From: an uncultured bacterium
Lineage (GTDB): Bacteria > Chlamydiota > Chlamydiia > Chlamydiales > SM23-39
Assembly: GCA_964516935.1 (NCBI GenBank)
Contig: CAZEZK010000002.1
Span: forward strand, 7,416 to 40,896
Length of the DNA stretch: 33,481 nucleotides
Direction: 5' to 3'
The notes beneath the pieces are model-generated. The model ran no database searches and had not been told where the DNA came from. It was given only the letters and a program-made list of their open reading frames with translations. Made by a program: the position numbers and the translations under genes. Positions 2,630-31,800 of the stretch are shown here, one piece after another. Within the stretch, counting starts at the first letter, position 1. The number at the start of each line of letters is the position of its first letter.

Positions 2630-2732
2630 GCTTCCCCTTTTAACGAAAAAATTGTTTTACGACTAGAGAGTTGAAACAAACAAAGCGCGTAAAGAAATAG
2701 ATTTTTAATTTCTCTTCTCCTATTCTTTACAC

Positions 2733-10582: not shown

Positions 10583-13500
10583 TTAATCCTCTTGGGTGCC
10601 TTTGAGCTGGAAGCAGCTATAGATCAGACAGGCGATATTGACCGCGATCGCATTGAGAATTCTGTAGAACCAGTAACAGAGCAGCTCGAATGAGGAAAGT
10701 GTAGCCCAACTAGCTTCATATGCTTTAATTTTCTGCTCTACCTTGAGAACAAAACTCGTCAACCCCTCCTGTTTTTGAATAGAAGCCTGAGCGAAAAACC
10801 ACTTCCGATCTGCATCTGTCACACTTTGAAATAGTGCGTTCGCAGTATTATTGGCTTTCACCTCAAACTCCCCGTCAATTTTGATCTTCTGTAGCATATT
10901 TACTAGGTCGTTCCGCGTGACTTTTTTGGCAAAGTTAATGAACTCTTCAATCTGTATTTGAGAGAGTATTGGCGCATCAAACCCCTCTAGAATTTCGACA
11001 GCTAATTGCGGCCGCGAAAGCAGCGCCGCACTAAAGAGCTTGCTCATCAGCGGCGCCGAAATGGGCAGCGTTTTTTTGCCATTATAGGCGGCCCATAGCT
11101 TTTCAAAGACCACCACATCTGTCGCACTCTCCTCAAAAACCGCCTCAATGGTCTCTAAAGTCTGCGCGCGCAGTAGACATCCCGCCTCCTCAGTCAACGG
11201 AAGGGCGAGTTTGTTTCGAAGAACTTCTGTGATTGCATCTATCGAAAGAGGTGCCTTTTTTACAATAATCACCTGAATCAGCGCCTTTACAACAGAAATG
11301 CCACCCGAGCCATCTAACCATGCCAAGCCCTGTAATAGGGCCGGATCAAAATAGGCCCTGTCTATCTCTAAAGTTCGGAGGACTTTCACGAGATGCCCCA
11401 CAATCTTATTGCCTTTGTCTCCAAATCCATCGAAAGGGTAATTTTTAAGAATATTCAGCAGATCTTCTAAGGGAATCTGTAACTCTCGCGATCGCGCATG
11501 CGCGGCAATCGCTTCGACCAGTTCAAATAGCTTTTTCTCTTTTACGCGGTTGGTGAGCTGCACCAGCAACTTCCCAACCATCTCTCCAGTGAGTTGTGAA
11601 GAGGAGAGCAACGCCCACATCCGCTGCGTCATACAATACTCAAACCCCTTCTCCGCGCCAGCATGTCTCTCCTGGAGACCGTAGTCTGGAGCTTCACTAA
11701 ATACAAGCCACTTGTCTAACAAGTCTGTTCCCTCGTTCGCTGTTTGCAATAGAGCAGCTTCCAAATCTGCCGCTGGTACTTGCAACCCGTTAGTAAACGC
11801 TGTAGCAATCTTCGTCTCCATCGAGAAGATATGCGGCGCACCTTCTATAGAGGGAACGCCTTGCCAATGCAATAACGCCAATCCTCGCACCTTCTCCGAA
11901 TGAGCCATCGTTAACATGGACTCAACAAAGAGATGTGGGAGGGAACAGTCTGCCGAAAAGATTTTTACACAATCGGACTCTGATAGATTTGGCTTCAAAT
12001 CAATATAGGCAGCTATCACTTGAGAACGGTGTCTCTTGTTCATCGCATTTATAGAAGCAAGCTCCTGATCAACGAATTGGGCACTCCAGCGCTGACCGAA
12101 CTTCGGCTCGTTGAGAAACCAACTCATTGTATATAATTTCATCAACACCTCTATAAGTGGCGTAAGCTTATTGTCGATATAAAACTGCAATATCTGCTCA
12201 CACAATGGCCTATCCAGCTCAATATCAAGAGTCAATATCAACAGGTCACACTGCTGTTTAAGCATAGGAACCAGCAATGGCCACCTTAAGCGAAGAAACT
12301 TCTCGAGGTCGTTTGGGGTTACAACACCCATCGCATTTTGCTCAACCACCTTTAAAGAGATTTTTCCCGCGAGACGGGGCAACTCCAGAATAATTGCCTG
12401 AAGCCCCTGCTCCGAAATGGCTCTTACGCAGTCAAAGAGATGTCCATTTTCTATTACCTTGCGGATCAGCCATGGATTCTCCTCTACACACTGAGCAATC
12501 TGCTCTGCTGTTGCTGTTCGAAATAGGAAATCGATCGATTGCGTTCGATTCTTCAATGCGCTAGGGTTGAGCAACAGCGCCTTTTCTTCTTTAAAGCTCT
12601 TAGGCTCTTTTTTCCATAAAACTAGCAGCGCTGCGAATGCGGTTGCATCCTTGGGTGCAGCGCGAGCAGAGAGCGTCCAGAGCCGTCTAGCCACGAGATC
12701 GTTGACTCTTTGTGCGTGAATGTCGCGGTTGTTCCAGGCTCGAGCATGGCGTTCCTGAGCTCGATGCATCTGCTCGCGGATGTCATGATCATCGGGATTC
12801 TGACCATGAGCATCCTCTAAACGCATCGCTTCTGCATGAAGCTCATCAACATTGCCGAGCTCATATCGCCCTTCATCGCATATAAGTTCCATCACACCGA
12901 GACTGCTATTAATAAATCCATAAGCTAACCGCTGCAGCTGCAAAACAGAGCTCCAAAATGTTCTCAAGAGCTCGTATAGAGGACGATACTGTTTACAAAT
13001 TGCATAGTCGATGCTTCGCCTTGCCAATTGCTTATTTTTGTCTCTAAGAGCCTCACGCGCGTTTTGAAGCTCTTCGCGTTTTTGAATCAAATCGTTGCAT
13101 TTTTGTTTCAACTCTTCACGTTCCGCCTGCAAAAGGTTCAGCCGGTTTGTATCCAAATGAGCTGTCTTGAGACAAAATTGAAAAATCTGATCTTCCAGAA
13201 TTGCTCTGTGCGCTTCAACATCCTCAATCGCTTTCGAATTCTCGAATAGCGGTTTTTCCATATCGATAAAATGCTGAACCAGAGATTTTTCCTGCGCAAT
13301 CCTTGCGACAAAATCGCTCAGCACCGTTTCAAGGAAATCGGGCCGATCTTGATCGATCAGTAATTCAAGGAGCTGCGGAAAGAGTCCTCCGGATGGTTTC
13401 GGATGTCCACACAAGAGATAGCCTATCCAACTCGCAAGTATCGCGCGTTCACCTACTGTGAGCATGCCTTGATACCCATCGACCCAAGCCTGAATCGTCT

Positions 13501-13810
13501 TTGTCTGAAACTCCTCTTTCGTCAGCAGCAGTGTCGGCGCAGGAAGAAGGGTTTTGTCAATGGCGATCTCGCTAAATAGCGGATCTACTGCGTTTTTACG
13601 CAAGAAGTGCTCAATCTTACAATTAAGAGGAAACAGCTGCATCCTCCAGGATTGGCTCATCGATTCGCGAAACAATTGGCGAACCACTTCTTGTATTGTC
13701 TTGGATGTAGCCTGGTAAGCTATTACATCTAGAGGATCAAGAAATGTTATAATATGGCCTTGCAGATCCGACATACTGAGTACAATATCGCGCGCGCGCG
13801 GAGAAATCAT
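10583..13810 (-). CDS. large (1075 aa) mostly helical protein with an F-box-like N-terminus, a coiled-coil segment and a C-terminal tail-anchor helix
   Basis: Residues ~13-50 read SDLQGHIITFLDPLDVIAYQATSKTIQEVVRQL and fit the F-box pattern L-x-x-x-I-x-x-(F/Y)-L-D-x-x-D-(L/V)-x(5)-V/T-S-K-x-(W/I)-x-x-(L/V)-V. The coiled-coil-like run is LNLLQAEREELKQKCNDLIQKREELQNAREALRDKNKQLARR. The last 33 aa, LLCYWFYRILNAIAVNIACLIYSCF-QLKGTQED, form one hydrophobic helix plus a short polar tail. Confidence 0.8.
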   Translation of the reverse strand: MISPRARDIVLSMSDLQGHIITFLDPLDVIAYQATSKTIQEVVRQLFRESMSQSWRMQLFPLNCKIEHFLRKNAVDPLFSEIAIDKTLLPAPTLLLTKEEFQTKTIQAWVDGYQGMLTVGERAILASWIGYLLCGHPKPSGGLFPQLLELLIDQDRPDFLETVLSDFVARIAQEKSLVQHFIDMEKPLFENSKAIEDVEAHRAILEDQIFQFCLKTAHLDTNRLNLLQAEREELKQKCNDLIQKREELQNAREALRDKNKQLARRSIDYAICKQYRPLYELLRTFWSSVLQLQRLAYGFINSSLGVMELICDEGRYELGNVDELHAEAMRLEDAHGQNPDDHDIREQMHRAQERHARAWNNRDIHAQRVNDLVARRLWTLSARAAPKDATAFAALLVLWKKEPKSFKEEKALLLNPSALKNRTQSIDFLFRTATAEQIAQCVEENPWLIRKVIENGHLFDCVRAISEQGLQAIILELPRLAGKISLKVVEQNAMGVVTPNDLEKFLRLRWPLLVPMLKQQCDLLILTLDIELDRPLCEQILQFYIDNKLTPLIEVLMKLYTMSWFLNEPKFGQRWSAQFVDQELASINAMNKRHRSQVIAAYIDLKPNLSESDCVKIFSADCSLPHLFVESMLTMAHSEKVRGLALLHWQGVPSIEGAPHIFSMETKIATAFTNGLQVPAADLEAALLQTANEGTDLLDKWLVFSEAPDYGLQERHAGAEKGFEYCMTQRMWALLSSSQLTGEMVGKLLVQLTNRVKEKKLFELVEAIAAHARSRELQIPLEDLLNILKNYPFDGFGDKGNKIVGHLVKVLRTLEIDRAYFDPALLQGLAWLDGSGGISVVKALIQVIIVKKAPLSIDAITEVLRNKLALPLTEEAGCLLRAQTLETIEAVFEESATDVVVFEKLWAAYNGKKTLPISAPLMSKLFSAALLSRPQLAVEILEGFDAPILSQIQIEEFINFAKKVTRNDLVNMLQKIKIDGEFEVKANNTANALFQSVTDADRKWFFAQASIQKQEGLTSFVLKVEQKIKAYEASWATLSSFELLCYWFYRILNAIAVNIACLIYSCFQLKGTQED
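10585..10607. repeat. left copy of a 23-bp perfect inverted repeat (33 bp with 3 mismatches); partner at 18371-18393
   Basis: The sequence aatcctcttgggtgcctttgagc at 10585-10607 is the exact reverse complement of gctcaaaggcacccaagaggatt at 18371-18393. Here it encodes the last codons of the F-box-like gene (..LKGTQED*). Confidence 0.9.
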
Positions 13811-17062: not shown

Positions 17063-18352
17063 ATGTTTATCAATAATTCAGAATCAATTCAGAAGCGCAC
17101 GCAGCCATTGAAGCTGCAAGTAAATAATCCGTTTTGTCGGAGCAAGATCAACCAACTTTTGTTAGAAGCTGTAGACCAATCGAATGTAAAAAACTGCTAT
17201 AAGCTGTTAGAAAATCGAACTGTTGATTCTATTCCTATCGAAGAGTGGCACAAGATCAACTTCAAAGTGAACGGTTTTGAAATCATCTATCCAATGATTC
17301 ACTTCGCTCGTAAAAACGGTCGACAAGACCTCCTCTCGATTTTTATTGGTTCACGCAGTGGCTGTCTAGGGGACTTTCTACTCGATGCGATCGACAAATT
17401 CGATCTAGAAGTCTGCGCAGAAATCCTAAATGATCCCCACTGCCTCTCCATTCCGGCCGAAAAGTGGCTTCAAATCAACGCCAAAATAGTTGATAACGAG
17501 ATTGTCCATTTGGTCATTCTATTCGCCCATAAAAACAATCAGCAAGATCTCCTCGTCCTTTTGATCGGCTCGCGCAGGGACTCTTTGGGACACCTGTTAC
17601 TCGATGCTGTTGACCGATCTAATCTGGAAGTTTGTTTTGAGATACTCAAAGACCAGAATGTCTGTTTCATTCCAATCAAACTATGGCACGAGATCGGCGC
17701 TAAAATAGCTGACACCAACATCTTGTATCTAGCTCTCCATTTCGCTTGCGAAAATCAGCGCCGAGACATCGCCTCCATTATTATCAACTCATACAGTGGC
17801 TCGCTAGGAGAGGTGTTACTTGAAACTCTAAACCGATCGAACCCGACGGTCTATTTTGCAATATTAAACCATCCAAATGCCGGTTCTATTCCCCTCGAAA
17901 TGTGGCGCACAATCAAACTCCAAGTCAAAGATCCCACGCTATTTTATCCGATTCTTCGGTGCGCCAGCAAAACCGGTCGAGAAGATGTTCTATCCCTTTT
18001 TATCGGCTCCTACAATGCGCTGGAGTACATGAAGCTCTGTCTTCTTTGCCTGAATGATCTAGTCACTTTGACATCAGTTCTTCACTTCGTAACAAAGGAA
18101 CATCTTCCCGGTCATAATCGTCTTGCTATCCTATATTGGGCCAATCAGGGCGATGTTGGAGAGGTAACTCAATTGATCGATGAAGGAATCTCGACAGAAT
18201 GTTACGAAACGATTAGTTACCTTCTAGACGCCCATGATTTTGGAGAAAAAAAAGGGAAGTTTTTATATATTGTTGAACAACGCTCTTCCAAATGGATAAA
18301 CAGAAAACATGCAGAGGAAGTACTGGCACGAGTAAGCCCCCTCTCATTTTAG
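17063..18352 (+). CDS. tandem-repeat protein with ankyrin-like double repeats (429 aa)
   Basis: It has four consecutive 73-aa units. Each is of the form LL(E/D)A(V/I)D.SN.EVC.EIL......IP...W..I..K........L..FA.KN.(R/Q)QDLL.L.IGSR...LG. The LLxAVxxxNxxxxxxLL and xLHFAxxxxxxDxxxxLI halves resemble ANK helix pairs. A further ANK-like segment, AILYWANQGDVGEVTQLIDEG, lies near the C-terminus. Confidence 0.8.
   Translation: MFINNSESIQKRTQPLKLQVNNPFCRSKINQLLLEAVDQSNVKNCYKLLENRTVDSIPIEEWHKINFKVNGFEIIYPMIHFARKNGRQDLLSIFIGSRSGCLGDFLLDAIDKFDLEVCAEILNDPHCLSIPAEKWLQINAKIVDNEIVHLVILFAHKNNQQDLLVLLIGSRRDSLGHLLLDAVDRSNLEVCFEILKDQNVCFIPIKLWHEIGAKIADTNILYLALHFACENQRRDIASIIINSYSGSLGEVLLETLNRSNPTVYFAILNHPNAGSIPLEMWRTIKLQVKDPTLFYPILRCASKTGREDVLSLFIGSYNALEYMKLCLLCLNDLVTLTSVLHFVTKEHLPGHNRLAILYWANQGDVGEVTQLIDEGISTECYETISYLLDAHDFGEKKGKFLYIVEQRSSKWINRKHAEEVLARVSPLSF
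17159..18013 (+). repeat. 4 x 219-nt (73-codon) in-frame tandem repeat inside the ankyrin-like gene
   Basis: The motif LL(E/D)(A/T)(V/I/L)(D/N) recurs at residues 33, 106, 179 and 252, an exact 73-aa period. Copies are diverged at the protein level, so this is an old duplication rather than a slippage-prone repeat. Confidence 0.8.
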
Positions 18353-18370: not shown

Positions 18371-18393
18371 GCTCAAAGGCACCCAAGAGGATT
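18371..18393. repeat. right copy of the 23-bp perfect inverted repeat; an out-of-frame relic of a ...LKGTQED* gene end
   Basis: On the plus strand, 18363-18395 reads TCC TTC CTG CTC AAA GGC ACC CAA GAG GAT TGA = SFLLKGTQED*. This is the same C-terminal peptide and nearly the same DNA as the F-box-like gene end (CFQLKGTQED*). It sits 11 nt after the ankyrin-like gene stop, in a different frame. That frame has a stop at 18333, and no start codon lies between 18333 and the relic. Confidence 0.85.
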
Positions 18394-18408
18394 GATTCAA
18401 AGCCTCGG

Positions 18409-18474
18409 GGTTGGATTACCGCTAATGGGGGTAGTATTGAGTTTAATACAACCCCCATTAGCGGTAATCCAACC
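18409..18474. repeat. 66-nt near-perfect palindrome (long hairpin) in the intergenic region
   Basis: Arms 18409-18432 (ggttggattaccgctaatgggggt) and 18451-18474 (acccccattagcggtaatccaacc) form 24 perfect bp. One A/A mismatch (18433/18450) follows. Then come 5 more bp (gtatt 18434-18438 with aatac 18445-18449) and a 6-nt loop gagttt. No U-tract follows. Confidence 0.85.
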
Positions 18475-18526
18475 GCGAGAGCTTTCAATGCAACCCTATT
18501 GGGTGCCATTGAGGTGGAAGGAGTAT

Positions 18527-18859
18527 ATGTCAAGCTGTATAACGTATGATGATCTCCGCGAGATATTTTTAGAGGCGTGCTCCCTCCACAATATCGATTT
18601 CAATACTCTCAGCCCCTTTGACAAGCTCTGTGCGCTCACTTTGAAAATCACCCCTATTGTGACCGAAATTCTCCCCTCAATGCATCAACAACAGTCTCTA
18701 TTAGACCTGATGAGAAAAGTCGCAGACAGATTATCTGATGATGACTGTTTGAACCTAACTCAATTAGATTTTGAGATCATCGTATTTGTCAGCATGACTA
18801 TCAATCAAATAGAGCAGCAAGAACCTCCGCCACTCTCAGGAAAACATAAGCGGGTGTAA
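18527..18859 (+). CDS. small acidic hypothetical protein (110 aa)
   Basis: The track ORF opens at 18392 (TTG) but would then translate straight through the palindrome. The in-frame ATG at 18527 is preceded by GAGGTGGAAGGAG, a strong Shine-Dalgarno sequence. The product is MSSCITYDDLREIFLEACSL...; I recognise no motif. Confidence 0.55.
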   Translation: MSSCITYDDLREIFLEACSLHNIDFNTLSPFDKLCALTLKITPIVTEILPSMHQQQSLLDLMRKVADRLSDDDCLNLTQLDFEIIVFVSMTINQIEQQEPPPLSGKHKRV

Positions 18860-18895: not shown

Positions 18896-21800
18896 CTAAT
18901 TATCGTAATTTAGCACTGTACCTAAATAAGTTAGCTGAGCCACCAGAATGGGCGTTACTGCGACATTGAGGGTGTTTGGCACGTAGCCGCCGGATATCGT
19001 CAGCCCAGTTCCTGCCAAAATATGTGTATTTGGAGAAGCGTAAAAGGCTCCGGTGGAATCGAGTAGCTGTGTAGATGCCCTAGAGATCAGGAAGATTGCG
19101 GGATTAAAACTGCCAGCGGTAATGTTGATCGCATTGAGCGCAACCACATCGGCAAAAGTACTGTAACCATTTACTGTGATGATAAGCGATCCAAAGACCG
19201 TCATCGCCTCATAAGCCCCCGTCATCAATGCTCCCCCAGTAATCGTCAGATCTGCACTAGAGGAGATCGTCGCTACACTCATCGGCGTTGCGCGGCCAAG
19301 TGGTGAAAGAGAAATGTAGCCATCTTGACCGCCTATGCCGGAGGCATCGAGCGTACTGCTGTTAAAGAGGATCAGCCCATTCGGAACTGTGCCAAAAGTT
19401 CCGTTGATCGTATAGCCAGCTCCAGGCTGGAGATAGATATTTCCGCCATCGCCCGCTGTCCCCTGAGTATCGATACTGCCAATGGAGACATTGCCGGTTG
19501 AGGAGATGAGAGTAACATTGCCGCCAAAGGTGCCGGAGGTGGTGAGTGTGCCGCCGCAGGTAATCGCTCCACTGGCAGCGGCGTAGAGATGTTCGCCAAT
19601 CGAGCCCACGCTGGAGAGGTCAACCGTGCTGGTGAGAGAGATCGATCCTTGTAGTGCGAGGAGCATGAAGGAGTAGTTACCCGTCACTGCCCCGGTAATG
19701 GTAATTGCTCCAACACCGCTGTTTGTAAGCGTTACAGGCGCGAGAAGGGTCACGGCTCCAGTATGGCTCAGGCTGGTAGTCACGGATTGATTGGCGGCGA
19801 TCTGAATAGTCGTGGCGGTCACACTGAGTGTGCTGATCGGGGTGGTGTTGCCGATATCGCTGGCGAAGAGCGCGGTGCCGGCGGTGACTGTGAGGCTGTT
19901 GGCGCCGTTAATCGTTCGATTGAAGGTTACAGTGCTGCTGCCTGAATTAATCGTAGAGGTGCCTGTGAGGCTGATGGGGCTATTGAATGTGATTGTGGTA
20001 TTGGGTGTGGTCACTGTAGTAGCGAAAGAGACGGTGCCGCCGCCAAACTCTGCAAAAGTGCCTCCGGTGAGTGTGACTGCACCAGCGAGGGTGAGCGCTC
20101 CGGTATGGGTAAGGATCACGCCAGAGGAGGCATTAATGCCTCCATTGATTGCGATGGCATTGCCGTTAAGGTTGAATGTGCCCGTTGTAGTGAGGAGTCC
20201 ATCATAGGTCGCCGTACCAGCAGCATAGGTCTGAACAATCGAGGTGGCACTAATCGTGCTAGAGGCGGTGATGTTATTGGCATTCCGGAGTGTAAGTGTA
20301 GAGAGACCGCTGACGGCGGAGGAGAAAGAGATGGTCGATGACTGACCGGCATCAAGAGTCAAATTATTAGCCCCTGTAATGGTATTAGTAAAGGAGATCG
20401 CTCCGCCAACAGTGCCGGTGTTCATCACAACATCTCCTGTGAGTGTGACGGGAATAGCGAGGGAAATCGAGCTGTTATTGGTAGAAATGTTCTGGTTGAG
20501 GCTCAGAGAAGAACCACTAATAGAGACGCTGCCAAGAGGTGTAGTCCCTCCAAGCGCACCGCCGAGTGTGACGACGCCAGCCGCGCTAATCGTAAGAGCA
20601 TAATCGCCATCAATAGTGCTAGAGAAGGTCGCTGTAGTGCTAGTGGCGCTAAATGTTACTCCAGCGGTTAGAACGGCAGGGATGGCTACGCTAATCGCAC
20701 CGGCAGTAACAGAACCTCCAAAGCTAACTTGTGTACCGGTAGATGCGGTAAATGTGCCGCTACCGAGACCTACTGTGCTATCCAAAGTAATATAGCCCGT
20801 GCCAGCGGCAAGAGTTAGATTTAGATTCGTTCCTGTAACGCTGCTGCTCAAAACCATTGCAACAACGCTAGATGAGGTGGTAGTTAAGGTGACATTCCCA
20901 TTCAGCGTAACAGCTGGCGTAATCGCGAGAGTCGTTGTGCTAATATTGTTGCCCAAGAAAACTCCAGCAGTGGCCGCTGTGATGTCAAAGTTGTAGGCAC
21001 CAGTGACAGTTCCTCCAAATGTTACAGAAGAGGTGCCGGCGGAGATGGCGACATCGCTCTGAAGGGTGACATTGCCGCCACTCATATTAACGGCAGAGTT
21101 ATTGATCGTAATGTCACCTGCAAGAACATAGGCGCTGGCCGTCGTGCTAAAGGCGGTGAGCGGAGTTGTTGAGCCGATATTGCCTAGGAAGCTGAGAGTT
21201 CCGCTAGCTGTAGCACTCAATCCAAACGCTCCATCGATCGTGTCGTTGAAGGTGATGTTACCGCTGCTAGCGGTGAAAGTGGGAGTGCTGGATTCGAGAA
21301 TTACTGGGCCAGTGACGGTAATATTGGCAGCTGTCGAGCTAATAGTGGTTGTGTTGAGGAGGACGGGAGCATCCTGAATGCCGACGAGGGCAATCGCCCC
21401 ACTCGCGCTACTCATGGAACCAGTAGAGGCTACGTTGATCCCTCCATCGGAGGTAGAGGTGGAACTGGTCGCTCCCTGAAGTATGAGACTAATAGTGCTA
21501 TAGACAGTGATTGCGGCATTTACAGCAATTCCATTAAATCCGCTTCCTCCGGTGCCAGTCAATAGAATTGAGCCGGCGCCAAGCAAGCTGCTACTGAATG
21601 CGGCATCGATGAGGATTCCATCCCCCTGAATTGCCAACCCTGTGAATGTGGCACTACTAGAGGCGTTAGAGAGAGTAACAGTCGTCGCTGCTGTATCTAT
21701 GCCGATGCCTAGAGTTCCTTGACCAGTGACCGAGAGGGTCGCAGAAGCAGCGCCACCAGTATCTCCTATGAGGAAGCTGGCGCCAGAGAGCTCTACTCCA

Positions 21801-24800
21801 TAGTTCCCGCTGCCACTAGCATCATGGCTGCCAAATCCAATCAAGGTAACGACACCGCTATTAGCGCACTGTACAATACCGCTGCTGTCGATGAGAATCC
21901 CCACCTCTGTGGAGCCAGTGCCATGGCTTCCAGCAGCAACAGCGAGTGTCGTCGTAGTGGAGCTACCTAGCGTACCTCCATGGATGTAGAGTCCCACATT
22001 CTTGCCTGAGCCGGGACCGCCTTGAATCCCCTCTATCGAAAGCGTTGGGGCACTGAGCTGAATGCCATTGAGCATGAGACCAAAGTTATTGGCCGAGGAG
22101 GAAACTTGCCCTGGAAGGGGCCCTCCTCCCTGAACGTTGAAGAGAGTGACGGTTCCTTGGGTAGGAGCGAGAGATGCGGCGAGGACAACTCCTGCGTTAT
22201 TTGGCGTTGTACCTGTCTGCGTACCGCCGAGACCGCCGAGGCAGTCTGTAAAGACGAGTGCACTCGTGTTATCGGTGAAAGAGAGCGTGCCATTCCAATA
22301 GGCACCATAGTGCAGACCGCCGCTGCCAAAACCACCTCGGCCAATCACATAGGCTGTGGCGCCGGTTGCAATAGAGAGGGTACTACCTGATGCGAAGCTG
22401 ACACCGATATCACCGGTGCTACTGCTACTGAAGGAACCACCGCCGCTGCCTTGGAGGTAGGCGGTGCTATTCACCTGGAGAATAGCGCTACCGATTTGAA
22501 TACCAATCTCCCCTGTCCCACTGCCAGCGCTGCCGGCCTGAATCGAAAGAGTGGTAGCTGTAAAGGTGCCGCCATTGATATAGAAGCCGATGTCTCCTCC
22601 GGTGCCGATACCGCCCATTACATCTGTTGCTGTAATAATAGGTGCGGTGACACTAGCCCCGGCATAGACTCCATAATTATTTGCGAGAGGACCACCGCCA
22701 TTAATGTTTCGGAAGAGGAGCGTTCCTGCAGCTTGAGAGAGTGCGGCGCCAATATTGACACCATAGTTATCGCTGCCACCGCTGCCACCAAAGCTCTGGA
22801 TGAACTGAACGCTATTACTACCGCTGATGGCATTTGCGCTAATAACGGAGACGCCATGGTGACCACCGCCAGTGCCGGTACCACCAGTGCCGCTGATCTG
22901 GATAGTTCGTGAGAATGTATCCGACAGTCCAAGCGTTGCTGCAGCAATCACAACACCGATATTGCCTGAGCCGCTGCCGCTATAAAAGCCGCCACCAGTC
23001 CCTTGCAATAAAATAGTACCATTGCTGCTGCAATTCACTGTGCCAGCGAGGTAGATCCCGATCTCATTACTGCCGAGACCAAGAGATCCTGCGGAGACAG
23101 GGAGATAGCTCTCTGCTGTGCTGCCGAGCGTGCCTCCATTGAGATAGAAACCGTAATTCGAGCCGTTACCAGGGCCTCCGAGGATATCTGTCAGCTGAAT
23201 CGTGGGCGCTGTCACAGTGCCGGAGATGTAGAGGCCGTAATTATTGAGAAGACTACTGCCACCGACAATGTCGCGGAAGACGAGAGCGCCACTAGCGAGA
23301 TTCAAGTTGGTGATAAAATTAATGCCAACATTGTTATTTCCACCGATCCCTCCAGCGCAATGAATAAAGGTGAGTGCACTGCTCGTGGCACTAAAGCTAG
23401 TATTGATCTCAACACCATGGTGCGTGCCACCTGTCCCTGTGCCGCCAATGCCAGTGAGAGTGGAGGAATTTGTTCCTGTCAGGGAGGCTGCTGAAAGAAG
23501 GATACCGATGTTGCGAGAGCCAGAGGCGCTATAAAGGCCACCGCCACTCCCCGTCAGTTCTAGAATGGTCGCCTGAACAGAGCCATTGAGAATATAGATA
23601 CCTACCTCATTGCTGCCGAGCCCCATAGAACCGGCGCCGATCGAAACGCGCTGCGTCCCACTATTGCCGAGGGAGCCTCCATTAATATTCAATCCGACAT
23701 CATTACTTGATCCCGCGCCACCATAGAGATCGTGGCCGATAATATTGGTGGCAACAACTGTCGAGACGATGCGGACGCCATCATTGTAGGTTGAGGTGGG
23801 ATTGCTGCCACCGCTGATGTGGGTAAAGTAGAGAGTCCCTCGGTTAAGAGTCGTAGCTCCTGTTGCGGTGACATAAACGCCGATATTGTTGTTGCTGCCA
23901 AGGCCGCCAACACAATTTTGGAATGTGAGAGCATCCCCGTTGCTGGTACCATTGAGGTTCGCCGTAAAGCCATTTTCAATATTTACACCACAGTGACCAC
24001 TCCCCTCTCCTGCGCCGCCGATCCCCGTTAGAAGGATAATATTAGTAGCAGCACCTCCATTACCTGCTGTGAGCGTAGCGCCACTGAGCTCAATACCATG
24101 GTTGTTGGAGCCGCTTGTAATATAAAGACCTCCTCCGGCACCAATCAGTTCGAGTGTACCGCCGTTGCTTACGAGCGCAGAGCCGCTATCGAGATAGATT
24201 CCATACTCTTGGCTGCCCTGTCCTAAGCTACCAGCATTCATGTAAAGTTTGTTAGTAGTTGAGCTGCCGAGCGTACCGGCAATATGAAGCCCGACATTAT
24301 TGTTTGTTCCAGGGCCGCCTAAAAGATCTGTACCAAGAATAATTGGCGCCGACACGGTAACGCCGCTGGGGATGTAGACTCCATCGTTTTGAGTTGCGGT
24401 TCCGCTGCCACCGCCGGCGATATTATTAAATTGGAGAAGGCCAGTAACTAGAGAGAGGTTGCCAATAAAGTCGACCCCATTGTTCTGGTTTCCGCCGGTG
24501 CCACCGCTGCAATTCTGGAAGATCAATGTGGTGCCGCTAAAGGCAACGGCATTTACAGCAACCCCGTCATTGAAGCCACCAGAACCGACACCACCAATAC
24601 CAGTCAGGGTAGCAGTAGTCGTAGCAGTTAAGAGCGCGCTATCGAGGAAGATGCCATAATTCTGGAGACCGCTGCCATTATAGAAACCTCCACCTGTACC
24701 CATGAGCACCATGCTATTTGCTTGAACGGTTCCAGCCGTGTCGATCGCAATACCATAGTTGTGGCCCCCCATACCTATTGAGCCAGCGCTCACACTGATG

Positions 24801-27800
24801 AAACTGGTGCCAGCGCCTCCTAACGTGCCTCCCTGAATGTAGAGACCATGGTTTAGAAGTGTTCCAGGTCCACCGTAGATATCCTCGCAGAGAATTATCG
24901 GCGCTTGCACTGTCGATGTAATTAGCACACCGTAATTGCTTGTCGTCGTACCGCCACCGGCGATATTAGTGAACTGAAGCGTACCATGGGTAAGAGCGAG
25001 CCCCGTTGTCAGATTGACTCCGTAGTTATTGGCTCCTGAAGTTCCGCCTGTGCAGTTGAGGAAGGTGAACGTATCCCCGTTTCCTGTGCCATTGAGATTA
25101 ACGGAGAGGAGTGTCGCAGTATAGACGCCATAATTACCGCCCCCGACACCTACTCCACCTGTACCGCTAATGGTAATCGTATTGGTCGATGTACCTCCAG
25201 TTCCAGCAGTTAGCGTTGCGCTCTCTAGATCGACTCCATAATGGCCGCCGCTGATGCCAGAACCACCTACACCAGTCAATGCGATTGTGGTTCCGCTGAC
25301 GGACCCTGTATTGATCGAAAGGCCATAATTTCCCGAAACCGCGCTATTATAGAGGCCTCCGCCCGTTCCCATTAGAGAGAGAGTGCCTCCGCTGCCCACA
25401 GTTGCACTTCCGCTGCTGTCAATCAGAAGGCCGATCTCAGAAAGGCCAAGACCGATAGAGCCGGCGCTGATGCGAATCTGATTGGTAGCGCTACTGCCTA
25501 AAGTGCCGCCATGAATGTAGAGGCCATAATTGTTATTGATGCCAGGACCGCCATAAATATCTGCACCAAGAATGGTTGGCGCAGTCACTGTGCCGGCAAT
25601 ATAGATACCATAATTCGTGGGACCTGGAGCGCCTCCAGTGATATTGCTGAACTGCAACAGGCCGCTTACCAGCGTAAGATTGCTAACAAAATTGACACCA
25701 TAGTTACTGCCGACAGCACCCGTACCACCCGTGCAGTTAAGGAAGATCAAGCTACTGGTATTGGCCGCCACAGTATCGACTACGACACCGTGATGGAATC
25801 CTTGCGTTCCTACCCCGCCAAGGCCAGTAAGAGTCACAGTCGTTCCCGTCAGCGTAGCGCCTTGTAAATAGATGCCGTAATTGCCAGAGCTGCTGCTGCT
25901 ATAGAGACCACCACCGGCACCTGTAAGGGTAAATGTGGTTGCACTCACCGTGCCATTACTATAGATGCCATACTCAGATCCACCCAACCCGAGGGAGCCA
26001 CAGCTCATGCGCACCTGACTACCGATTAAGGTGCCACTAAGATAAAGACCTATATTGCTGCCGACTCCGGGACCGCCTACGATGTCTGCACCAAGAATCG
26101 TGGGCGCTCGCACCGTACTTGTGCTTTCAATGTAGATGCCGTAGTTATTTGCCACTGGACCGCCGCCAACAACATTGGTGAACTGCAGGGCACCACTGAC
26201 CATTGTAAGGTTACCTAGGAAGTCCACACCATAGTTATTGCTACCACCCTGGCCACCACTGCAATTTAAGAAAGTAAGGGTTGGCGTGCCTGCAGTTAGG
26301 CTATTGCAGACGACACCATGGTGAAATCCAGCTGTTCCCACACCACCAATCCCCGTTAAGGTTACAGAAGTGCCTCCAGTAACTGTAGCGCTATTAAGAT
26401 AGACGCCATAGTTGTTAATGCCAGAATTACTGTAGAGCCCTCCGCCTAGACCGACTACCGTAACCACCCCTTCGCTGCCAGAAACCACGCTGCCATTTAT
26501 ATAGATACCTATCTCCCCGCTACCAATTCCAAAAGAGCCGGCTGTTAGCGTAAGTTGGGAAAGTGTGGAGCTACCTAGCGTGCCTCCATTAATATAGAGG
26601 CCGTAATCATTACTGCTGCCAGGCCCCCCAAAAATATTGGAGGCTAGGATCGCTGGGGCGCTCACAGTTGCAGTGATCCAGAGGCCATAATTATCAGATG
26701 TGGTACCGCCTCCTGTGGCCCCAGAAAACTGAAGCATACCGCTCACCATCTGGAGGTTTGTTGCTAAGACAACGCCGCAATTGTTCAGTCCGCCAGTCCC
26801 TCCGGCACAATTTAAGAAGGTCAAACTAGCGCTATTGATCTCGAGAGATGTGGTGGCATTCACGCCGTGGTGCTGGCCACCTGTGCCTGTACCGCCGATA
26901 CCAGTTAGAGTCATCGCACTGCTGCCTGTAAGGGTAGCACTGCTGAGGAAAATCCCCAGATTCTGCTGACCACTACTACTATAGAGGCCGCCGCCGATAC
27001 CGGTCAGTGCAACTGTCTCGCCCGATACAGTTCCTCCGATATTGATTCCATACTCATTGCTGCCATTCCCGAGCGAGCCGCAGCTCATACGGAGCTGGCT
27101 GCCCTGTAGGGTGCCTGCAACATACATCCCGTAGTTATTATTGGTTCCAGGACCGCCGAAGATCCCGGTTCCGAGAATGGTCGGCGCGGTAACAGTTCCT
27201 GGAATATAGAGACCATAGTTGCTAGCTGTGCCATTGCCACCGCCAGCGACATCCGTAAACTGCAGTGTCCCGTTGATGAGGGTGAGATCTGAAGAAATAT
27301 TGACGCCGTGGTTGAGACTACCCCCCGTTCCCCCAGCACAATTGAGGAAGGTGGCAAGAGTAGTATTGAGCGTAACAGTTGTTGTATAGACGCCATAGTT
27401 ACTACCTGTAGAGCCCGTTCCTCCTAGACCGGTCAACGTAACAGAGCTACCAGTAAGTGTTGCCGTTTCAAGATCAAGACCATAATTTGTCCCGCTCATG
27501 CCTGTCCCACCAAAACCAGTCAATGTGACGGCTGCAGAGGCATTCACACTGCCGTTATTGATAGAGAGGCCATAGTTACCTCCAACGGCAGAGCTATAGA
27601 GACCACCACCAGTCCCGGTCAAGGAGATCGTATTGGCGAGTACTGTTCCACCGCTATCGATCAAGATTCCAATTTCAGAGCTACCTAATCCAATGGTACC
27701 TGCAGTTAAATCGATCTGCCCTAATCCGGTACTGCCTAAGGTTCCTCCATGGATATAGAGACCATAATCTGTGCCAGTGCCTAGACCGCCCATGATGTCT

Positions 27801-28876
27801 GAACCGATAATCACGGGAGCCGTCACAGTACCGGTAATATAAATCCCATAATTCCCCGCAGCGAGCCCGCCACCACAGATATTGGTGAACTGGAGCGTTC
27901 CACTCACCATCGAGAAGTTGCCGCTAAAGTTGATGCCGTAATTGGAAGAACCACCCGTGCCACCGGCGCAATTTAAGAATGTGATACCACCATTTGCAGT
28001 GAGACCGCTAACCAAAACGCCATGATGGTTTCCGAGCAGTCCAACGCCACCGATCCCTGTAACTGTCGCATTAAAAATCGTCCCGCTCAGCGATACACCA
28101 TAGTTGTTCTGCCCAGCTGCACTGTAGAGGCCGCCGCCACTGCCAGTGAGTAAAACGCTGGTCGCGTTAATCACACCAGTTGTATTGATACCAATCTCAT
28201 TGCTGCCAAGACCTAGTGAGCCAGCGCTAATGCGCACTAAATTAGCGACCAGACTTCCTGTGATATAGAGACCATAATTGGTCCCAGAACCAGGACCGCC
28301 GAGTATATCGGCACCGAGGATAGTTGGCGCGGTAACAGTGCCGGCCACAGCAACGCCATAGTTGCTCGCGCCGATGCCACCGCCTGTAATGTTGGTAAAT
28401 TGGAGAGTCCCCGTCGCTAGCGTCAAATTTCCGACAATATCGACCCCATCGCTACCCGCACCACTGCCGCCGCTGCAGTTTAGGAAGGTCAGCGTATTGC
28501 TACTGCTACTAAGACCGACCGTAGTAGTAGAGCTATCGATAAAGACGCCATGGTGCAGGCCGCTCAACCCAGTGCCGCCAATTCCAGTGAGGGTGAAACT
28601 ATTGCCAATAACAAAAGTCGCTCCACTCAGATAGATGCCATAATTCTGCTGACCAGAGCCGCTGTAGAGACCACCGCCGGTTCCCACAAATGTCAATGTG
28701 CCCCCCTGTCCGACAACCACACTTCCTGCAACCGCAATCCCATACTCATTGCTTCCAATTCCTAATGAACCGCCGGAGATCTGAAGCTCATTCGTCGATG
28801 AGCTGCCTAACGTAGAACCGCTTTCGATGTAAAGACCATAGTTATTGCCGGAGCCAGGACCACCAAAAATTTCCAT
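18896..28876 (-). CDS. giant beta-strand/Gly-rich repeat protein, distal part (3326 aa as tracked); the frame is actually open up to 28936 and continuous with the upstream ORF
   Basis: It contains 12 super-repeats marked by (T/I)F(L/Q)NCxGGxGG..NYG, LQFTNxxGGG, APTILGxDIxGGPGxxxNYGLYI, SAGSLGxGSxEYGI, LTGxGGGLYS and LTGIGGxGxxGxHHGV. These are followed by a ~950-aa Thr/Ser/Gly/Ala/Ile-rich region. No Shine-Dalgarno sequence lies upstream of the ATG at 28876. Confidence 0.85.
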   Translation of the reverse strand: MEIFGGPGSGNNYGLYIESGSTLGSSSTNELQISGGSLGIGSNEYGIAVAGSVVVGQGGTLTFVGTGGGLYSGSGQQNYGIYLSGATFVIGNSFTLTGIGGTGLSGLHHGVFIDSSTTTVGLSSSSNTLTFLNCSGGSGAGSDGVDIVGNLTLATGTLQFTNITGGGIGASNYGVAVAGTVTAPTILGADILGGPGSGTNYGLYITGSLVANLVRISAGSLGLGSNEIGINTTGVINATSVLLTGSGGGLYSAAGQNNYGVSLSGTIFNATVTGIGGVGLLGNHHGVLVSGLTANGGITFLNCAGGTGGSSNYGINFSGNFSMVSGTLQFTNICGGGLAAGNYGIYITGTVTAPVIIGSDIMGGLGTGTDYGLYIHGGTLGSTGLGQIDLTAGTIGLGSSEIGILIDSGGTVLANTISLTGTGGGLYSSAVGGNYGLSINNGSVNASAAVTLTGFGGTGMSGTNYGLDLETATLTGSSVTLTGLGGTGSTGSNYGVYTTTVTLNTTLATFLNCAGGTGGSLNHGVNISSDLTLINGTLQFTDVAGGGNGTASNYGLYIPGTVTAPTILGTGIFGGPGTNNNYGMYVAGTLQGSQLRMSCGSLGNGSNEYGINIGGTVSGETVALTGIGGGLYSSSGQQNLGIFLSSATLTGSSAMTLTGIGGTGTGGQHHGVNATTSLEINSASLTFLNCAGGTGGLNNCGVVLATNLQMVSGMLQFSGATGGGTTSDNYGLWITATVSAPAILASNIFGGPGSSNDYGLYINGGTLGSSTLSQLTLTAGSFGIGSGEIGIYINGSVVSGSEGVVTVVGLGGGLYSNSGINNYGVYLNSATVTGGTSVTLTGIGGVGTAGFHHGVVCNSLTAGTPTLTFLNCSGGQGGSNNYGVDFLGNLTMVSGALQFTNVVGGGPVANNYGIYIESTSTVRAPTILGADIVGGPGVGSNIGLYLSGTLIGSQVRMSCGSLGLGGSEYGIYSNGTVSATTFTLTGAGGGLYSSSSSGNYGIYLQGATLTGTTVTLTGLGGVGTQGFHHGVVVDTVAANTSSLIFLNCTGGTGAVGSNYGVNFVSNLTLVSGLLQFSNITGGAPGPTNYGIYIAGTVTAPTILGADIYGGPGINNNYGLYIHGGTLGSSATNQIRISAGSIGLGLSEIGLLIDSSGSATVGSGGTLSLMGTGGGLYNSAVSGNYGLSINTGSVSGTTIALTGVGGSGISGGHYGVDLESATLTAGTGGTSTNTITISGTGGVGVGGGNYGVYTATLLSVNLNGTGNGDTFTFLNCTGGTSGANNYGVNLTTGLALTHGTLQFTNIAGGGTTTSNYGVLITSTVQAPIILCEDIYGGPGTLLNHGLYIQGGTLGGAGTSFISVSAGSIGMGGHNYGIAIDTAGTVQANSMVLMGTGGGFYNGSGLQNYGIFLDSALLTATTTATLTGIGGVGSGGFNDGVAVNAVAFSGTTLIFQNCSGGTGGNQNNGVDFIGNLSLVTGLLQFNNIAGGGSGTATQNDGVYIPSGVTVSAPIILGTDLLGGPGTNNNVGLHIAGTLGSSTTNKLYMNAGSLGQGSQEYGIYLDSGSALVSNGGTLELIGAGGGLYITSGSNNHGIELSGATLTAGNGGAATNIILLTGIGGAGEGSGHCGVNIENGFTANLNGTSNGDALTFQNCVGGLGSNNNIGVYVTATGATTLNRGTLYFTHISGGSNPTSTYNDGVRIVSTVVATNIIGHDLYGGAGSSNDVGLNINGGSLGNSGTQRVSIGAGSMGLGSNEVGIYILNGSVQATILELTGSGGGLYSASGSRNIGILLSAASLTGTNSSTLTGIGGTGTGGTHHGVEINTSFSATSSALTFIHCAGGIGGNNNVGINFITNLNLASGALVFRDIVGGSSLLNNYGLYISGTVTAPTIQLTDILGGPGNGSNYGFYLNGGTLGSTAESYLPVSAGSLGLGSNEIGIYLAGTVNCSSNGTILLQGTGGGFYSGSGSGNIGVVIAAATLGLSDTFSRTIQISGTGGTGTGGGHHGVSVISANAISGSNSVQFIQSFGGSGGSDNYGVNIGAALSQAAGTLLFRNINGGGPLANNYGVYAGASVTAPIITATDVMGGIGTGGDIGFYINGGTFTATTLSIQAGSAGSGTGEIGIQIGSAILQVNSTAYLQGSGGGSFSSSSTGDIGVSFASGSTLSIATGATAYVIGRGGFGSGGLHYGAYWNGTLSFTDNTSALVFTDCLGGLGGTQTGTTPNNAGVVLAASLAPTQGTVTLFNVQGGGPLPGQVSSSANNFGLMLNGIQLSAPTLSIEGIQGGPGSGKNVGLYIHGGTLGSSTTTTLAVAAGSHGTGSTEVGILIDSSGIVQCANSGVVTLIGFGSHDASGSGNYGVELSGASFLIGDTGGAASATLSVTGQGTLGIGIDTAATTVTLSNASSSATFTGLAIQGDGILIDAAFSSSLLGAGSILLTGTGGSGFNGIAVNAAITVYSTISLILQGATSSTSTSDGGINVASTGSMSSASGAIALVGIQDAPVLLNTTTISSTAANITVTGPVILESSTPTFTASSGNITFNDTIDGAFGLSATASGTLSFLGNIGSTTPLTAFSTTASAYVLAGDITINNSAVNMSGGNVTLQSDVAISAGTSSVTFGGTVTGAYNFDITAATAGVFLGNNISTTTLAITPAVTLNGNVTLTTTSSSVVAMVLSSSVTGTNLNLTLAAGTGYITLDSTVGLGSGTFTASTGTQVSFGGSVTAGAISVAIPAVLTAGVTFSATSTTATFSSTIDGDYALTISAAGVVTLGGALGGTTPLGSVSISGSSLSLNQNISTNNSSISLAIPVTLTGDVVMNTGTVGGAISFTNTITGANNLTLDAGQSSTISFSSAVSGLSTLTLRNANNITASSTISATSIVQTYAAGTATYDGLLTTTGTFNLNGNAIAINGGINASSGVILTHTGALTLAGAVTLTGGTFAEFGGGTVSFATTVTTPNTTITFNSPISLTGTSTINSGSSTVTFNRTINGANSLTVTAGTALFASDIGNTTPISTLSVTATTIQIAANQSVTTSLSHTGAVTLLAPVTLTNSGVGAITITGAVTGNYSFMLLALQGSISLTSTVDLSSVGSIGEHLYAAASGAITCGGTLTTSGTFGGNVTLISSTGNVSIGSIDTQGTAGDGGNIYLQPGAGYTINGTFGTVPNGLILFNSSTLDASGIGGQDGYISLSPLGRATPMSVATISSSADLTITGGALMTGAYEAMTVFGSLIITVNGYSTFADVVALNAINITAGSFNPAIFLISRASTQLLDSTGAFYASPNTHILAGTGLTISGGYVPNTLNVAVTPILVAQLTYLGTVLNYDN

Positions 28877-31800: not shown

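What the first reader, a model, noticed from the sequence alone, without database searches (positions are those of the whole stretch)
28874..28939. A single in-frame TGA splits one gene of 4,860 or more codons into two giant ORFs
The 1507-aa ORF (stop TGA at 28939..28937, minus strand) and the 3326-aa ORF (ATG 28876..28874) are in the same frame. The 20 codons between them are open and read SNNFGLHLTGSVVTAPTILG. That is exactly the segment the repeat grammar requires between ...LQFTNLAGGGDGA and MEIFGGPGSGNNYGLYI. Compare an intact unit: LQFTDVAGGGNGTASNYGLYIPGTVTAPTILGTGIFGGPGTNNNYGMYV. No Shine-Dalgarno-like sequence precedes the ATG at 28876. This is therefore one gene with 1514 + 3346 = 4,860 sense codons inside the window and its 5' end still beyond 33481. 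It is interrupted by one nonsense codon at a variable Gly/Ser/Thr linker position. Possible explanations are recent pseudogenisation, a consensus error in a repeat, leaky UGA read-through giving short and full-length isoforms, or a genuine two-polypeptide arrangement.
Basis: partly seen in the sequence, partly recalled or inferred. Interest (0 to 1): 0.8.

Follow-up and report, generated by a model that had tools for sequence, protein, structure and literature searches.

The report
Premature stop in giant secreted-adhesin gene
The two giant reading frames are one roughly 5,270-codon gene for a filamentous-haemagglutinin-like secreted repeat protein, cut by a single very recent nonsense change (or a base-call error) at a codon that is serine in the closest relative, which is an ordinary kind of gene damage.

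Summary
On the minus strand, 33481..18896 is one frame of 4,862 codons. Its only internal stop is TGA at 28939..28937.

The interpretation "one gene interrupted by a nonsense codon" is supported.
- A syntenic ortholog (ENA GROS21-1 scaffold_624; NamZ-GT2-GT9 neighbours, 82% aa identity, collinear) is called as one uninterrupted 5,244-aa ORF. It reads TCC (Ser) where the window reads TGA.
- Every other homolog checked reads S, T or G there.
- The 3,346 downstream codons show dN/dS 0.076 against the ortholog and carry no second lesion. The change is therefore very recent, or it is not real.
- TGA is a normal stop in this genome (mnmG).
- The junction has no SECIS-like fold, Shine-Dalgarno motif or promoter. 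The "start" Met is an internal residue conserved in the ortholog.

The gene belongs to a rare family of giant TpsA (two-partner secretion, FHA-like) beta-solenoid exoproteins. These come mostly from Chlamydiales-labelled MAGs. Intact relatives carry an N-terminal TPS domain and an adjacent TpsB.

Best reading: a recent strain-level truncating allele that would give a product of about 1,919 aa. A consensus error cannot be excluded without reads. Programmed read-through and a true two-gene arrangement are unlikely. Interest is low.

The parts
28940..33481 (-). Upstream part of the single tpsA-like gene: 1,514 sense codons, open at the window end. About 405 further codons, including the expected signal peptide and TPS domain, should lie beyond 33481.
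   Evidence: The length estimate comes from the ortholog, where the orthologous Ser is about residue 1,920 of 5,244.
28937..28939 (-). Premature in-frame TGA. The orthologous codon is TCC (Ser) in two samples of the closest relative.
   Evidence: Homologs read S, T or G here.
28877..28936 (-). 20 sense codons (SNNFGLHLTGSVVTAPTILG) between the TGA and the first ATG. They are ordinary coding sequence of the repeat, not an intergenic spacer.
   Evidence: They align codon for codon with the ortholog (SNNFGVNLSGSVVAAPTILG). dN/dS over the first 60 downstream codons is 0.055. There is no SD motif, promoter or terminator.
18896..28876 (-). The '3,326-aa ORF', which is the downstream two thirds of the same gene and ends at TAG 18898..18896. 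Its ATG encodes an internal Met that is conserved in the ortholog (ILGMEIFGG against ILGMDIFGG).
   Evidence: dN/dS is 0.076 over 3,321 aligned codons.
21780..33481 (-). Array of about 21 super-repeats of ~180 aa (range ~170-225). Each is built from ~30-aa G-rich coils (…LTGxGGxGxxxNYGIxL…). The array is predicted to form a continuous beta-solenoid. The lower boundary is approximate.
   Evidence: Motif scan. Alignment A1 shows ~50% identity between units. The AlphaFold2 model has pLDDT 91.7 and is all beta. Foldseek returns only weak beta-helix hits.
18899..21779 (-). C-terminal region of ~960 aa with different, shorter T/S/A/G-rich repeats and a conserved end (…LTYLGTVLNYDN). It has no Pfam family.
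   Evidence: It is 81% identical to the ortholog's C-terminus.

Best explanation
The window holds about 92% of one gene for a giant exoprotein of roughly 5,270 aa. The protein is of the two-partner-secretion (type Vb, TpsA / filamentous-haemagglutinin-like) kind and comes from an uncultured bacterium, probably Chlamydiota. It is a long beta-solenoid shaft built from ~180-aa super-repeats. By analogy with intact relatives, it would be exported through an adjacent TpsB channel by means of an N-terminal TPS domain; both lie outside the window. In this assembly one codon (about codon 1,920) reads TGA where the closest relative has Ser (TCC). The most economical path is TCA to TGA by one C-to-G change. 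TGA is a genuine stop in this genome. As assembled, translation therefore ends there and gives an N-terminal product of about 1,919 aa. That product would keep the secretion domain and could probably still be exported, as truncated FHA derivatives are (inference from the literature on TPS systems). The 3,326-codon 'ORF' is not an independent gene. It has no ribosome-binding site, promoter, signal peptide or TPS domain, so any reinitiated product would stay in the cytoplasm. The lesion is evolutionarily very young. It is a strain-level truncating or pseudogenising allele, or less likely a wrong base in the consensus. Shown here: one ancestral gene, a sense codon in relatives, purifying selection on the downstream part, and the absence of recoding signals. 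Inferred: the TPS mode of export for this particular gene, the fate of the truncated product, and that the base call is real.
For: There is a single internal stop in 4,862 codons and the repeat phase is preserved across it. The syntenic ortholog (NamZ-GT2-GT9-...-giant gene) is called as one 5,244-aa ORF. It is 82% identical and collinear with window residues 1514-4861. It reads GCC TCC TCC AAC AAC TTT where the window reads GCC TGA TCG AAC AAC TTT, identically in two samples. Six further homologs read through the equivalent linker. dN/dS is 0.076 downstream of the stop, and 0.055 in the first 60 codons, which include the 20 codons before the ATG. Housekeeping neighbours give 0.025-0.145. About 2.1% of single-base changes downstream would create a stop, so a second stop is expected after roughly 33 (50%) to 141 (95%) neutral substitutions. 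None is present, although dS to the ortholog is ~1.4. TGA terminates mnmG at the homologous C-terminus. The junction has no SD motif, no promoter or terminator, no stable or SECIS-like fold (z = +0.83), no Rfam family and no tRNA. Junction DNA is unique in the window, with the next-best match at 65-73% identity, so a repeat-collapse artefact is unlikely. Family evidence: homologs sharing the repeats carry PF05860 TPS. They also have ShlB/TpsB immediately upstream (L001, L013).
Against: No reads and no second assembly covering the junction of this same strain could be obtained. A base-call or consensus error, or a minority variant, therefore cannot be separated from a fixed mutation. TCC to TGA needs two changes, so the TCA intermediate is assumed. 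The 5' end, TPS domain and TpsB of this particular gene are outside the window, so TpsA membership rests on homologs. The complete absence of secondary lesions also fits a gene that is in fact intact.
Confidence: 0.66

Rival explanations
1. Consensus, base-call or strain-mixture artefact. The organism's gene is intact (Ser or another sense codon), and the TGA exists only in the assembled contig or in a minority of the population.
For: There are no secondary lesions in 3,346 downstream codons, and purifying selection is strong. This is exactly what an intact gene would show. The sequence comes from a metagenome-derived contig. Other assemblies of relatives show artefactual breaks: an N-run scaffold gap splits the gene in L010, and frameshift splits occur in L001 and L002.
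Against: The lesion is a clean substitution, not an indel. The junction DNA is unique (at most 73% identity to any other unit), so mis-mapping or collapse is not expected. No other gene in the 33 kb looks damaged. Substitution errors in assembled consensus are much rarer than real nonsense polymorphisms in a 15.8-kb target (general knowledge).
Confidence: 0.22
2. Programmed recoding of the UGA, either leaky read-through by a near-cognate tRNA or selenocysteine insertion. One mRNA would then yield both a short (~1,919 aa) and a full-length (~5,270 aa) isoform.
For: The downstream frame is perfectly intact and in phase. UGA is the leakiest stop codon in bacteria (general knowledge).
Against: The ortholog and all homologs have ordinary sense codons (Ser, Thr, Gly), not a stop, Cys or Sec. 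No SECIS-like hairpin follows the UGA: the 86-nt context folds less stably than the mean of its shuffles (z = +0.83), and 169 of 200 shuffles fold at least as well. There is no Rfam hit. The +4 base is U, a strong termination context in E. coli (own knowledge, not tested here). TGA terminates mnmG normally.
Confidence: 0.04
3. Two genuine genes. The 1,9xx-aa and 3,326-aa polypeptides would be made separately, with the second starting at ATG 28876 by translational coupling, and would function together.
For: An ATG lies 20 codons after the stop. Relatives in L001 and L002 are also annotated as several consecutive large ORFs.
Against: The stop is absent from the syntenic ortholog (5,244 aa in one piece) and from the intact 5,514-aa homolog. 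The Met is an internal conserved residue, and the 20 'spacer' codons are conserved coding sequence. There is no SD motif or promoter. The second polypeptide would lack a signal peptide and TPS domain and so could not be secreted. The splits in L001 and L002 are frameshifts at other, non-homologous places.
Confidence: 0.03
4. Alternative genetic code, with TGA read as Trp or Gly as in codes 4 and 25.
For: Only that the frame continues after the TGA.
Against: mnmG ends at TGA exactly at the homologous C-terminus. Its Pfam C-terminal domain is complete 4 residues before the stop, and the alignment to E. coli MnmG runs to the end. It is the only in-frame TGA in 4,860 codons of a Gly-rich (21%) protein. 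GC content is about 52%.
Confidence: 0.01

Closest known systems
TpsA exoproteins of two-partner (type Vb) secretion systems: FhaB/FHA of Bordetella, EtpA of ETEC, HMW1, ShlA/HpmA
   Same: These are giant, repeat-built, all-beta solenoid proteins. Homologs sharing this gene's repeats have an N-terminal PF05860 TPS domain and a ShlB/FhaC-type TpsB gene directly upstream. The best structural superposition of the modelled repeats, although weak, is with EtpA (TM 0.49). N-terminal truncations of FHA are still secreted (literature knowledge).
   Different: The ~180-aa super-repeat has no Pfam, NCBIfam or PDB sequence match and no significant Foldseek hit (best E = 0.03). At about 5,270 aa the protein is larger than FhaB (~3,600 aa). 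The family is very rare, with 79 hits at E <= 1e-3 in 1.84 billion representatives, and is found in Chlamydiales/Parachlamydiales-labelled MAGs. This gene's own TPS domain and TpsB are outside the window.
Nonsense- or frameshift-inactivated giant adhesin genes (ordinary bacterial pseudogenes and truncation alleles of large surface proteins)
   Same: There is a single disabling substitution in an otherwise intact, selectively constrained giant surface-protein gene. An intact ortholog exists in the nearest relative.
   Different: Nothing of substance differs. No simple-sequence tract is involved, so this is not classical phase variation.
Bacterial selenoprotein genes or programmed UGA read-through
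   Same: An in-frame UGA is followed by a long open frame.
   Different: There is no SECIS-like structure. The ortholog has Ser, not Cys or Sec, and the stop is not conserved.

Membership tests
TpsA (two-partner secretion exoprotein, FHA-like) | N-terminal TPS secretion domain (PF05860) after a signal peptide | not testable with these tools
   The 5' ~400 codons lie beyond window position 33481. The feature is met in repeat-sharing homologs: P0044 (89 bits against a cut-off of 33.5), and P0025 and P0026.
TpsA (two-partner secretion exoprotein, FHA-like) | Cognate TpsB (POTRA + ShlB/FhaC Omp85 barrel) encoded next to it | not testable with these tools
   No TpsB is present among the window ORFs, but the expected position, upstream of the 5' end, is outside the window. 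A TpsB is present directly upstream in L013 and upstream in L001.
TpsA (two-partner secretion exoprotein, FHA-like) | Sequence homology of the shaft to proteins that carry a TPS domain | tested here: met
   P0025 and P0026 (PF05860-bearing) match at E ~1e-93, 40-42% identity. P0044 aligns over window residues 194-4860.
TpsA (two-partner secretion exoprotein, FHA-like) | Right-handed beta-helix / beta-solenoid shaft | tested here: inconclusive
   The AF2 model of 361 residues has pLDDT 91.7 and is all beta. All Foldseek PDB hits are beta-helix proteins, but none is significant (best E 0.03; EtpA TM 0.49). Handedness was not inspected.
Selenocysteine (UGA-Sec) recoding | SECIS hairpin immediately 3' of the UGA, and Cys or Sec at the position in orthologs | tested here: not met
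   Fold z-score is +0.83. There is no Rfam hit. The ortholog codon is TCC Ser.
Programmed stop-codon read-through, or two-gene arrangement | Stop codon conserved at the orthologous position in relatives | tested here: not met
   The syntenic ortholog is one 5,244-aa ORF with Ser at the site. Six homologs read through.
Independent downstream gene | Own translation-initiation signals (SD, promoter) before ATG 28876 | tested here: not met
   No SD-like tetramer lies within 30 nt. No promoter-like site lies in 28700-29200.
Alternative genetic code (TGA sense) | TGA not used as a terminator in conserved genes | tested here: not met
   mnmG terminates at TGA at the homologous C-terminus.

The most novel reading that the evidence does not exclude
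The UGA is real and tolerated because low-level read-through or reinitiation gives two products from one giant tpsA gene: an abundant secreted ~1,919-aa shaft and a rare full-length ~5,270-aa form. Alternatively, truncating alleles of this giant adhesin are recurrently selected in the population as a way of switching surface properties. Neither is excluded, because no reads, proteomics or further strains were available.
Probability: 0.05. Interest if true: 0.5.

Novelty: new member of a known kind. Interest (0 to 1): 0.15.

Why it matters
Mostly for annotation. The two 'giant ORFs' should be annotated as one interrupted tpsA-like gene, not as two hypothetical proteins. Identical fragments deposited elsewhere under the name 'nuclear pore complex protein Nup98-Nup96' in a Halothiobacillaceae MAG are mis-named and probably mis-binned. 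Beyond that, the locus documents a rare, uncharacterised family of very large two-partner-secretion exoproteins (5,200-5,500 aa) with a repeat that no domain library covers. The family appears to belong to environmental Chlamydiota, where surface adhesins for host (protist) contact are poorly known. The stop codon itself teaches nothing new about translation or gene structure unless read-level data show it is real and read through.

Tried and rejected
1. Exact look-up of the 3,326-aa product in the contig index found nothing on record. The neighbouring 429-aa gene led only to a 1.4-kb ENA contig.

2. Three homology searches were run: a 1,401-aa junction-spanning query, the ortholog's C-terminus, and a 149-aa junction query. 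None returned a second copy of this strain's junction, and none returned the 5,244-aa ortholog protein itself.

3. A GTDB genome scan found only a 30%-identical alphaproteobacterial protein.

4. A JGI metagenome protein-pattern scan and an exact-DNA scan both found nothing.

The work-around was listing of cluster members followed by a look-up with the returned P-id. This reached the orthologous codon with only 3 codons to spare.

6. Pfam, NCBIfam and PDB sequence searches on the repeats gave no family.

7. Foldseek against the PDB gave only non-significant beta-helix hits.

8. Rfam and ARAGORN found nothing.

9. I considered whether the multi-ORF state of relatives L001 and L002 means a conserved split. 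I rejected this. Those breaks are frameshifts at unrelated positions, and one L002 'junction' is a true intergenic region between two tandem giant genes.

10. I considered whether the L010 split was population variation. I rejected this because it is a run of N in a scaffold.

11. Literature searches for TpsA/FHA in Chlamydiae returned nothing specific.
Full report
**Observation**

On the minus strand the sequence reads …GGT GAC GGA GCC TGA TCG AAC AAC TTT…, with the TGA at 28939..28937.
- Translating 33481..18896 (-) gives 4,862 codons. There is one internal stop at codon 1515, and the terminal TAG is at 18898..18896.
- The mechanical ORF list shows a 1,507-aa ORF (28937..33460) and a 3,326-aa ORF (18896..28876) in the same frame. 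The upstream frame is open to the window edge.
- The 20 codons between the TGA and the first ATG read SNNFGLHLTGSVVTAPTILG, as reported.

**Repeat grammar**

The protein is 21% Gly and rich in Thr, Ser and Asn. It has only 2 Trp in 4,860 residues.
- It is built of about 21 super-repeats of ~180 aa. Each contains the landmark G-x-L-Q-F-x-N-x-x-G-G-G, then a 4-7-residue linker, then N-[YHF]-G.
- Two-unit segments align at ~50% identity, with dozens of invariant Gly, Asn and Phe columns.
- The TGA falls inside the variable linker (GGG-DGA*SN-NFG), and the repeat phase continues undisturbed.
- At the DNA level the units are only 62-73% identical over alignments of 100 nt or more; two 30-41-nt matches reach 85-87%. 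The 604 nt around the junction are unique in the window. A collapsed-repeat assembly artefact is therefore not a natural explanation.

**Genetic code and recoding signals**
- The neighbours are ordinary bacterial housekeeping genes: mnmG, a tsaB-like gene, nadE, groEL, namZ and GT2/GT9 glycosyltransferases.
- mnmG ends in TGA, overlapping the next ATG. Its Pfam C-terminal domain is complete four residues before that stop, and the alignment to solved MnmG structures runs to residue 604 of 605. TGA is therefore a real terminator here.
- The window has no tRNA or Rfam family.
- The 86 nt from the UGA onward fold less stably than the mean of their shuffles (z = +0.83), and 169 of 200 shuffles fold at least as well, so there is no SECIS-like element.
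- There is no promoter- or terminator-like site in 28700-29200.
- No AGGA, GGAG, GAGG or AAGG lies in the 30 nt before ATG 28876.
- The base after the stop is U. In E. coli that is a strong termination context (own knowledge, not tested).

**The ortholog**

The window's NamZ protein shares a 90% cluster with a protein on ENA contig GROS21-1_SAMEA9560839 scaffold_624, 63,437 bp.
- That contig has the same gene order, NamZ-GT2-GT9-two small ORFs-giant gene. NamZ is 95%, GT2 89% and GT9 78% identical.
- Its giant gene is called as a single ORF of 5,244 aa.
- By fetching the maximal flank around the adjacent 111-aa gene I recovered 3,328 residues of it (L008), and the same stretch from a sister sample (L009).
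- These residues are 82% identical and collinear with window residues 1514-4861.
- The fetched DNA reaches three codons beyond the site of interest. The ortholog reads GGC AGA GCC TCC TCC AAC AAC TTT GGG (G R A S S N N F G). The window reads GAC GGA GCC TGA TCG AAC AAC TTT GGA (D G A * S N N F G).

The orthologous residue is therefore Ser (TCC). The gene model runs through it, which places it at about residue 1,920 of 5,244. The window's 'start' Met is matched by an internal Met in the ortholog (ILGMDIFGG). Six more distant homologs also read through the equivalent linker with S, T or G.

**Age of the lesion**
- Nei-Gojobori dN/dS between the window and the ortholog is 0.076 over the 3,321 aligned codons downstream of the stop.
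- The ratio is uniform along the gene. It is 0.055 for the first 60 codons, which include the 20 codons ahead of the ATG.
- NamZ, GT2 and GT9 give 0.025, 0.054 and 0.145. dS is saturated at about 1.4.
- Of all possible single-base changes in the downstream 3,346 codons, 2.1% create a stop. Under neutrality a second stop would be expected after about 33 substitutions (50% chance; 0.3% divergence) and almost certainly after about 141 (95% chance; 1.4%). Indels are not counted.

No second stop is present. The downstream part has therefore been a translated, constrained coding sequence for essentially all of its history. The TGA is either very young or not real.

**What the gene is**

Pfam, NCBIfam and PDB sequence searches find nothing for the window's sequence.
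- Homology searches find a small family. There are 14 proteins in the word-indexed search and 79 with E <= 1e-3 among 1.84 billion cluster representatives.
- Several carry PF05860 (the TPS secretion domain). Their sources name them 'filamentous hemagglutinin N-terminal domain-containing protein', from Chlamydiales and Parachlamydiales MAGs.
- The intact 5,514-aa member P0044 has a signal-peptide-like N-terminus and a TPS domain (89 bits, cut-off 33.5). A ShlB/POTRA TpsB gene lies immediately upstream (L013).
- L001 likewise has ShlB, then a TPS-domain ORF, then the repeat ORFs.
- An AlphaFold2 model of the 361 residues after the stop, using the other repeats as the alignment, is confident (pLDDT 91.7, pTM 0.91) and all beta.
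- Foldseek against the PDB returns only beta-helix proteins: tailspikes, pectate-lyase-like enzymes, pertactin, HpmA and the TpsA adhesin EtpA. EtpA has the best TM-score, 0.49. No hit is significant (best E 0.03).

I therefore read the gene as a TpsA-type giant beta-solenoid exoprotein. The caveat is that this gene's own N-terminus and partner gene are outside the window.

**Mechanistic reading**

As assembled, ribosomes terminate at codon ~1,920.
- The ~1,919-aa product would retain the N-terminal secretion determinants. By analogy with truncated FHA derivatives (literature knowledge of TPS systems; review PMC5422565 found but not read here) it could still be exported. It would lack two thirds of the shaft and the conserved C-terminal region.
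- Any reinitiation at ATG 28876 would yield a cytoplasmic fragment with no export signal.

The arrangement is thus a truncation or pseudogene allele of one gene, not a two-gene design.

**Could it be an error?**

I could not obtain reads or a second assembly of this strain across the junction.
- Fragments 100% identical to residues 1677-2149, 2266-3517 and 4753-4861, and one 99.4% identical to 3816-3996, exist in other deposits. These are TPW12806.1, TPW18499.1, an ENA contig and TPW12978.1. None covers codon 1515.
- GTDB genomes and JGI metagenomes hold nothing close.
- Points favouring a real mutation: it is a clean substitution in unique DNA, and nothing else in the 33 kb looks damaged.
- Points favouring an error or minority variant: an intact gene is exactly what the flawless downstream frame looks like. 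Relatives' assemblies also show artefactual breaks, namely a scaffold N-run in L010 and frameshift splits in L001 and L002.

I put the probabilities at roughly 0.66 for a real recent lesion, 0.22 for an artefact, and about 0.08 together for recoding, two genes or an alternative code. The rest is unassigned.

**Comparison and novelty**

The gene is a new, unusually large member of the known TpsA/FHA-like class, with a repeat that no domain library models. The phenomenon flagged, a single nonsense codon splitting a giant surface-protein gene, is commonplace. Nothing here points to a new translational mechanism. Interest is low (0.15). The only reading that would raise it is demonstrated read-through or recurrent selected truncation, which I rate at about 5%.

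Noticed in passing
window 18896-28876 (-); proteins P0015, P0016, P0017 (TPW18499.1, TPW12806.1, TPW12978.1): GenBank proteins from a MAG labelled 'Halothiobacillaceae bacterium' (locus tags FD130_) are 99.4-100% identical to window giant-protein residues 2266-3517, 1677-2149 and 3816-3996. One is named 'nuclear pore complex protein Nup98-Nup96, partial'. The window's GroEL scores no better against E. coli GroEL than against non-gammaproteobacterial GroELs. The fragments are therefore probably mis-binned, and they are clearly mis-named.
   Followed up: partly
L001 6463-25071 and L002 10001-25079: Related giant tpsA-like genes on two contigs from ENA assemblies (contig_164188, contig_44355) are split into 3 ORFs each by frameshifts at unrelated positions. 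In L002 a separate gene of at least 3,848 aa lies upstream, across a true 330-nt intergenic region, so two giant genes sit in tandem. Whether the frameshifts are assembly indel errors or real decay was not resolved.
   Followed up: partly
L010 ~2089-2098; L009 gene call: In sister sample ERZ19044461 the ortholog is 'split' (129 aa + 1,786 aa) only because of a run of N in the scaffold. In ERZ19045193 (L009) the same gene is called as 4,465 aa instead of 5,244 aa, although the shared 11.5 kb differ by one base. The cause lies upstream of the fetched DNA and is unknown.
   Followed up: partly
window 18896-19100 (-), C-terminus of the giant protein: The window protein and its ortholog end right after …LTYLGTVLNYDN / …LNYDDE. 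The homologs P0043 and P0044 continue for about 80-130 more residues, with a Pro-rich linker and a conserved Cys-containing tail (…IPKICPxW…ECxEH…). This is a C-terminal module that this lineage lacks.
   Followed up: no
window 17063-18352 (+) and 18392-18859 (+): The two small ORFs between GT9 and the giant gene have no family in any library. They diverge much faster than their neighbours: 50% and 37% identity to the ortholog's 351-aa and 111-aa proteins, against 78-95% for the neighbours. The 429-aa protein is internally repetitive, with several offset tblastn matches.
   Followed up: no
window 10583-13810 (-): A 1,075-aa ORF has no Pfam or NCBIfam family above threshold, only faint coiled-coil-type hits. 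It is alone in its 90% cluster.
   Followed up: no
window 5678-5681: mnmG and the downstream tsaB-like gene overlap by ATGA (stop TGA, start ATG). This is a typical translational-coupling overlap. It served here as the control that TGA is a terminator.
   Followed up: yes
family level: The repeat family is extremely rare in public data: 79 representatives at E <= 1e-3 out of 1.84 billion, most of them short fragments. It has no Pfam model. Intact members reach 5,244-5,514 aa.
   Followed up: partly
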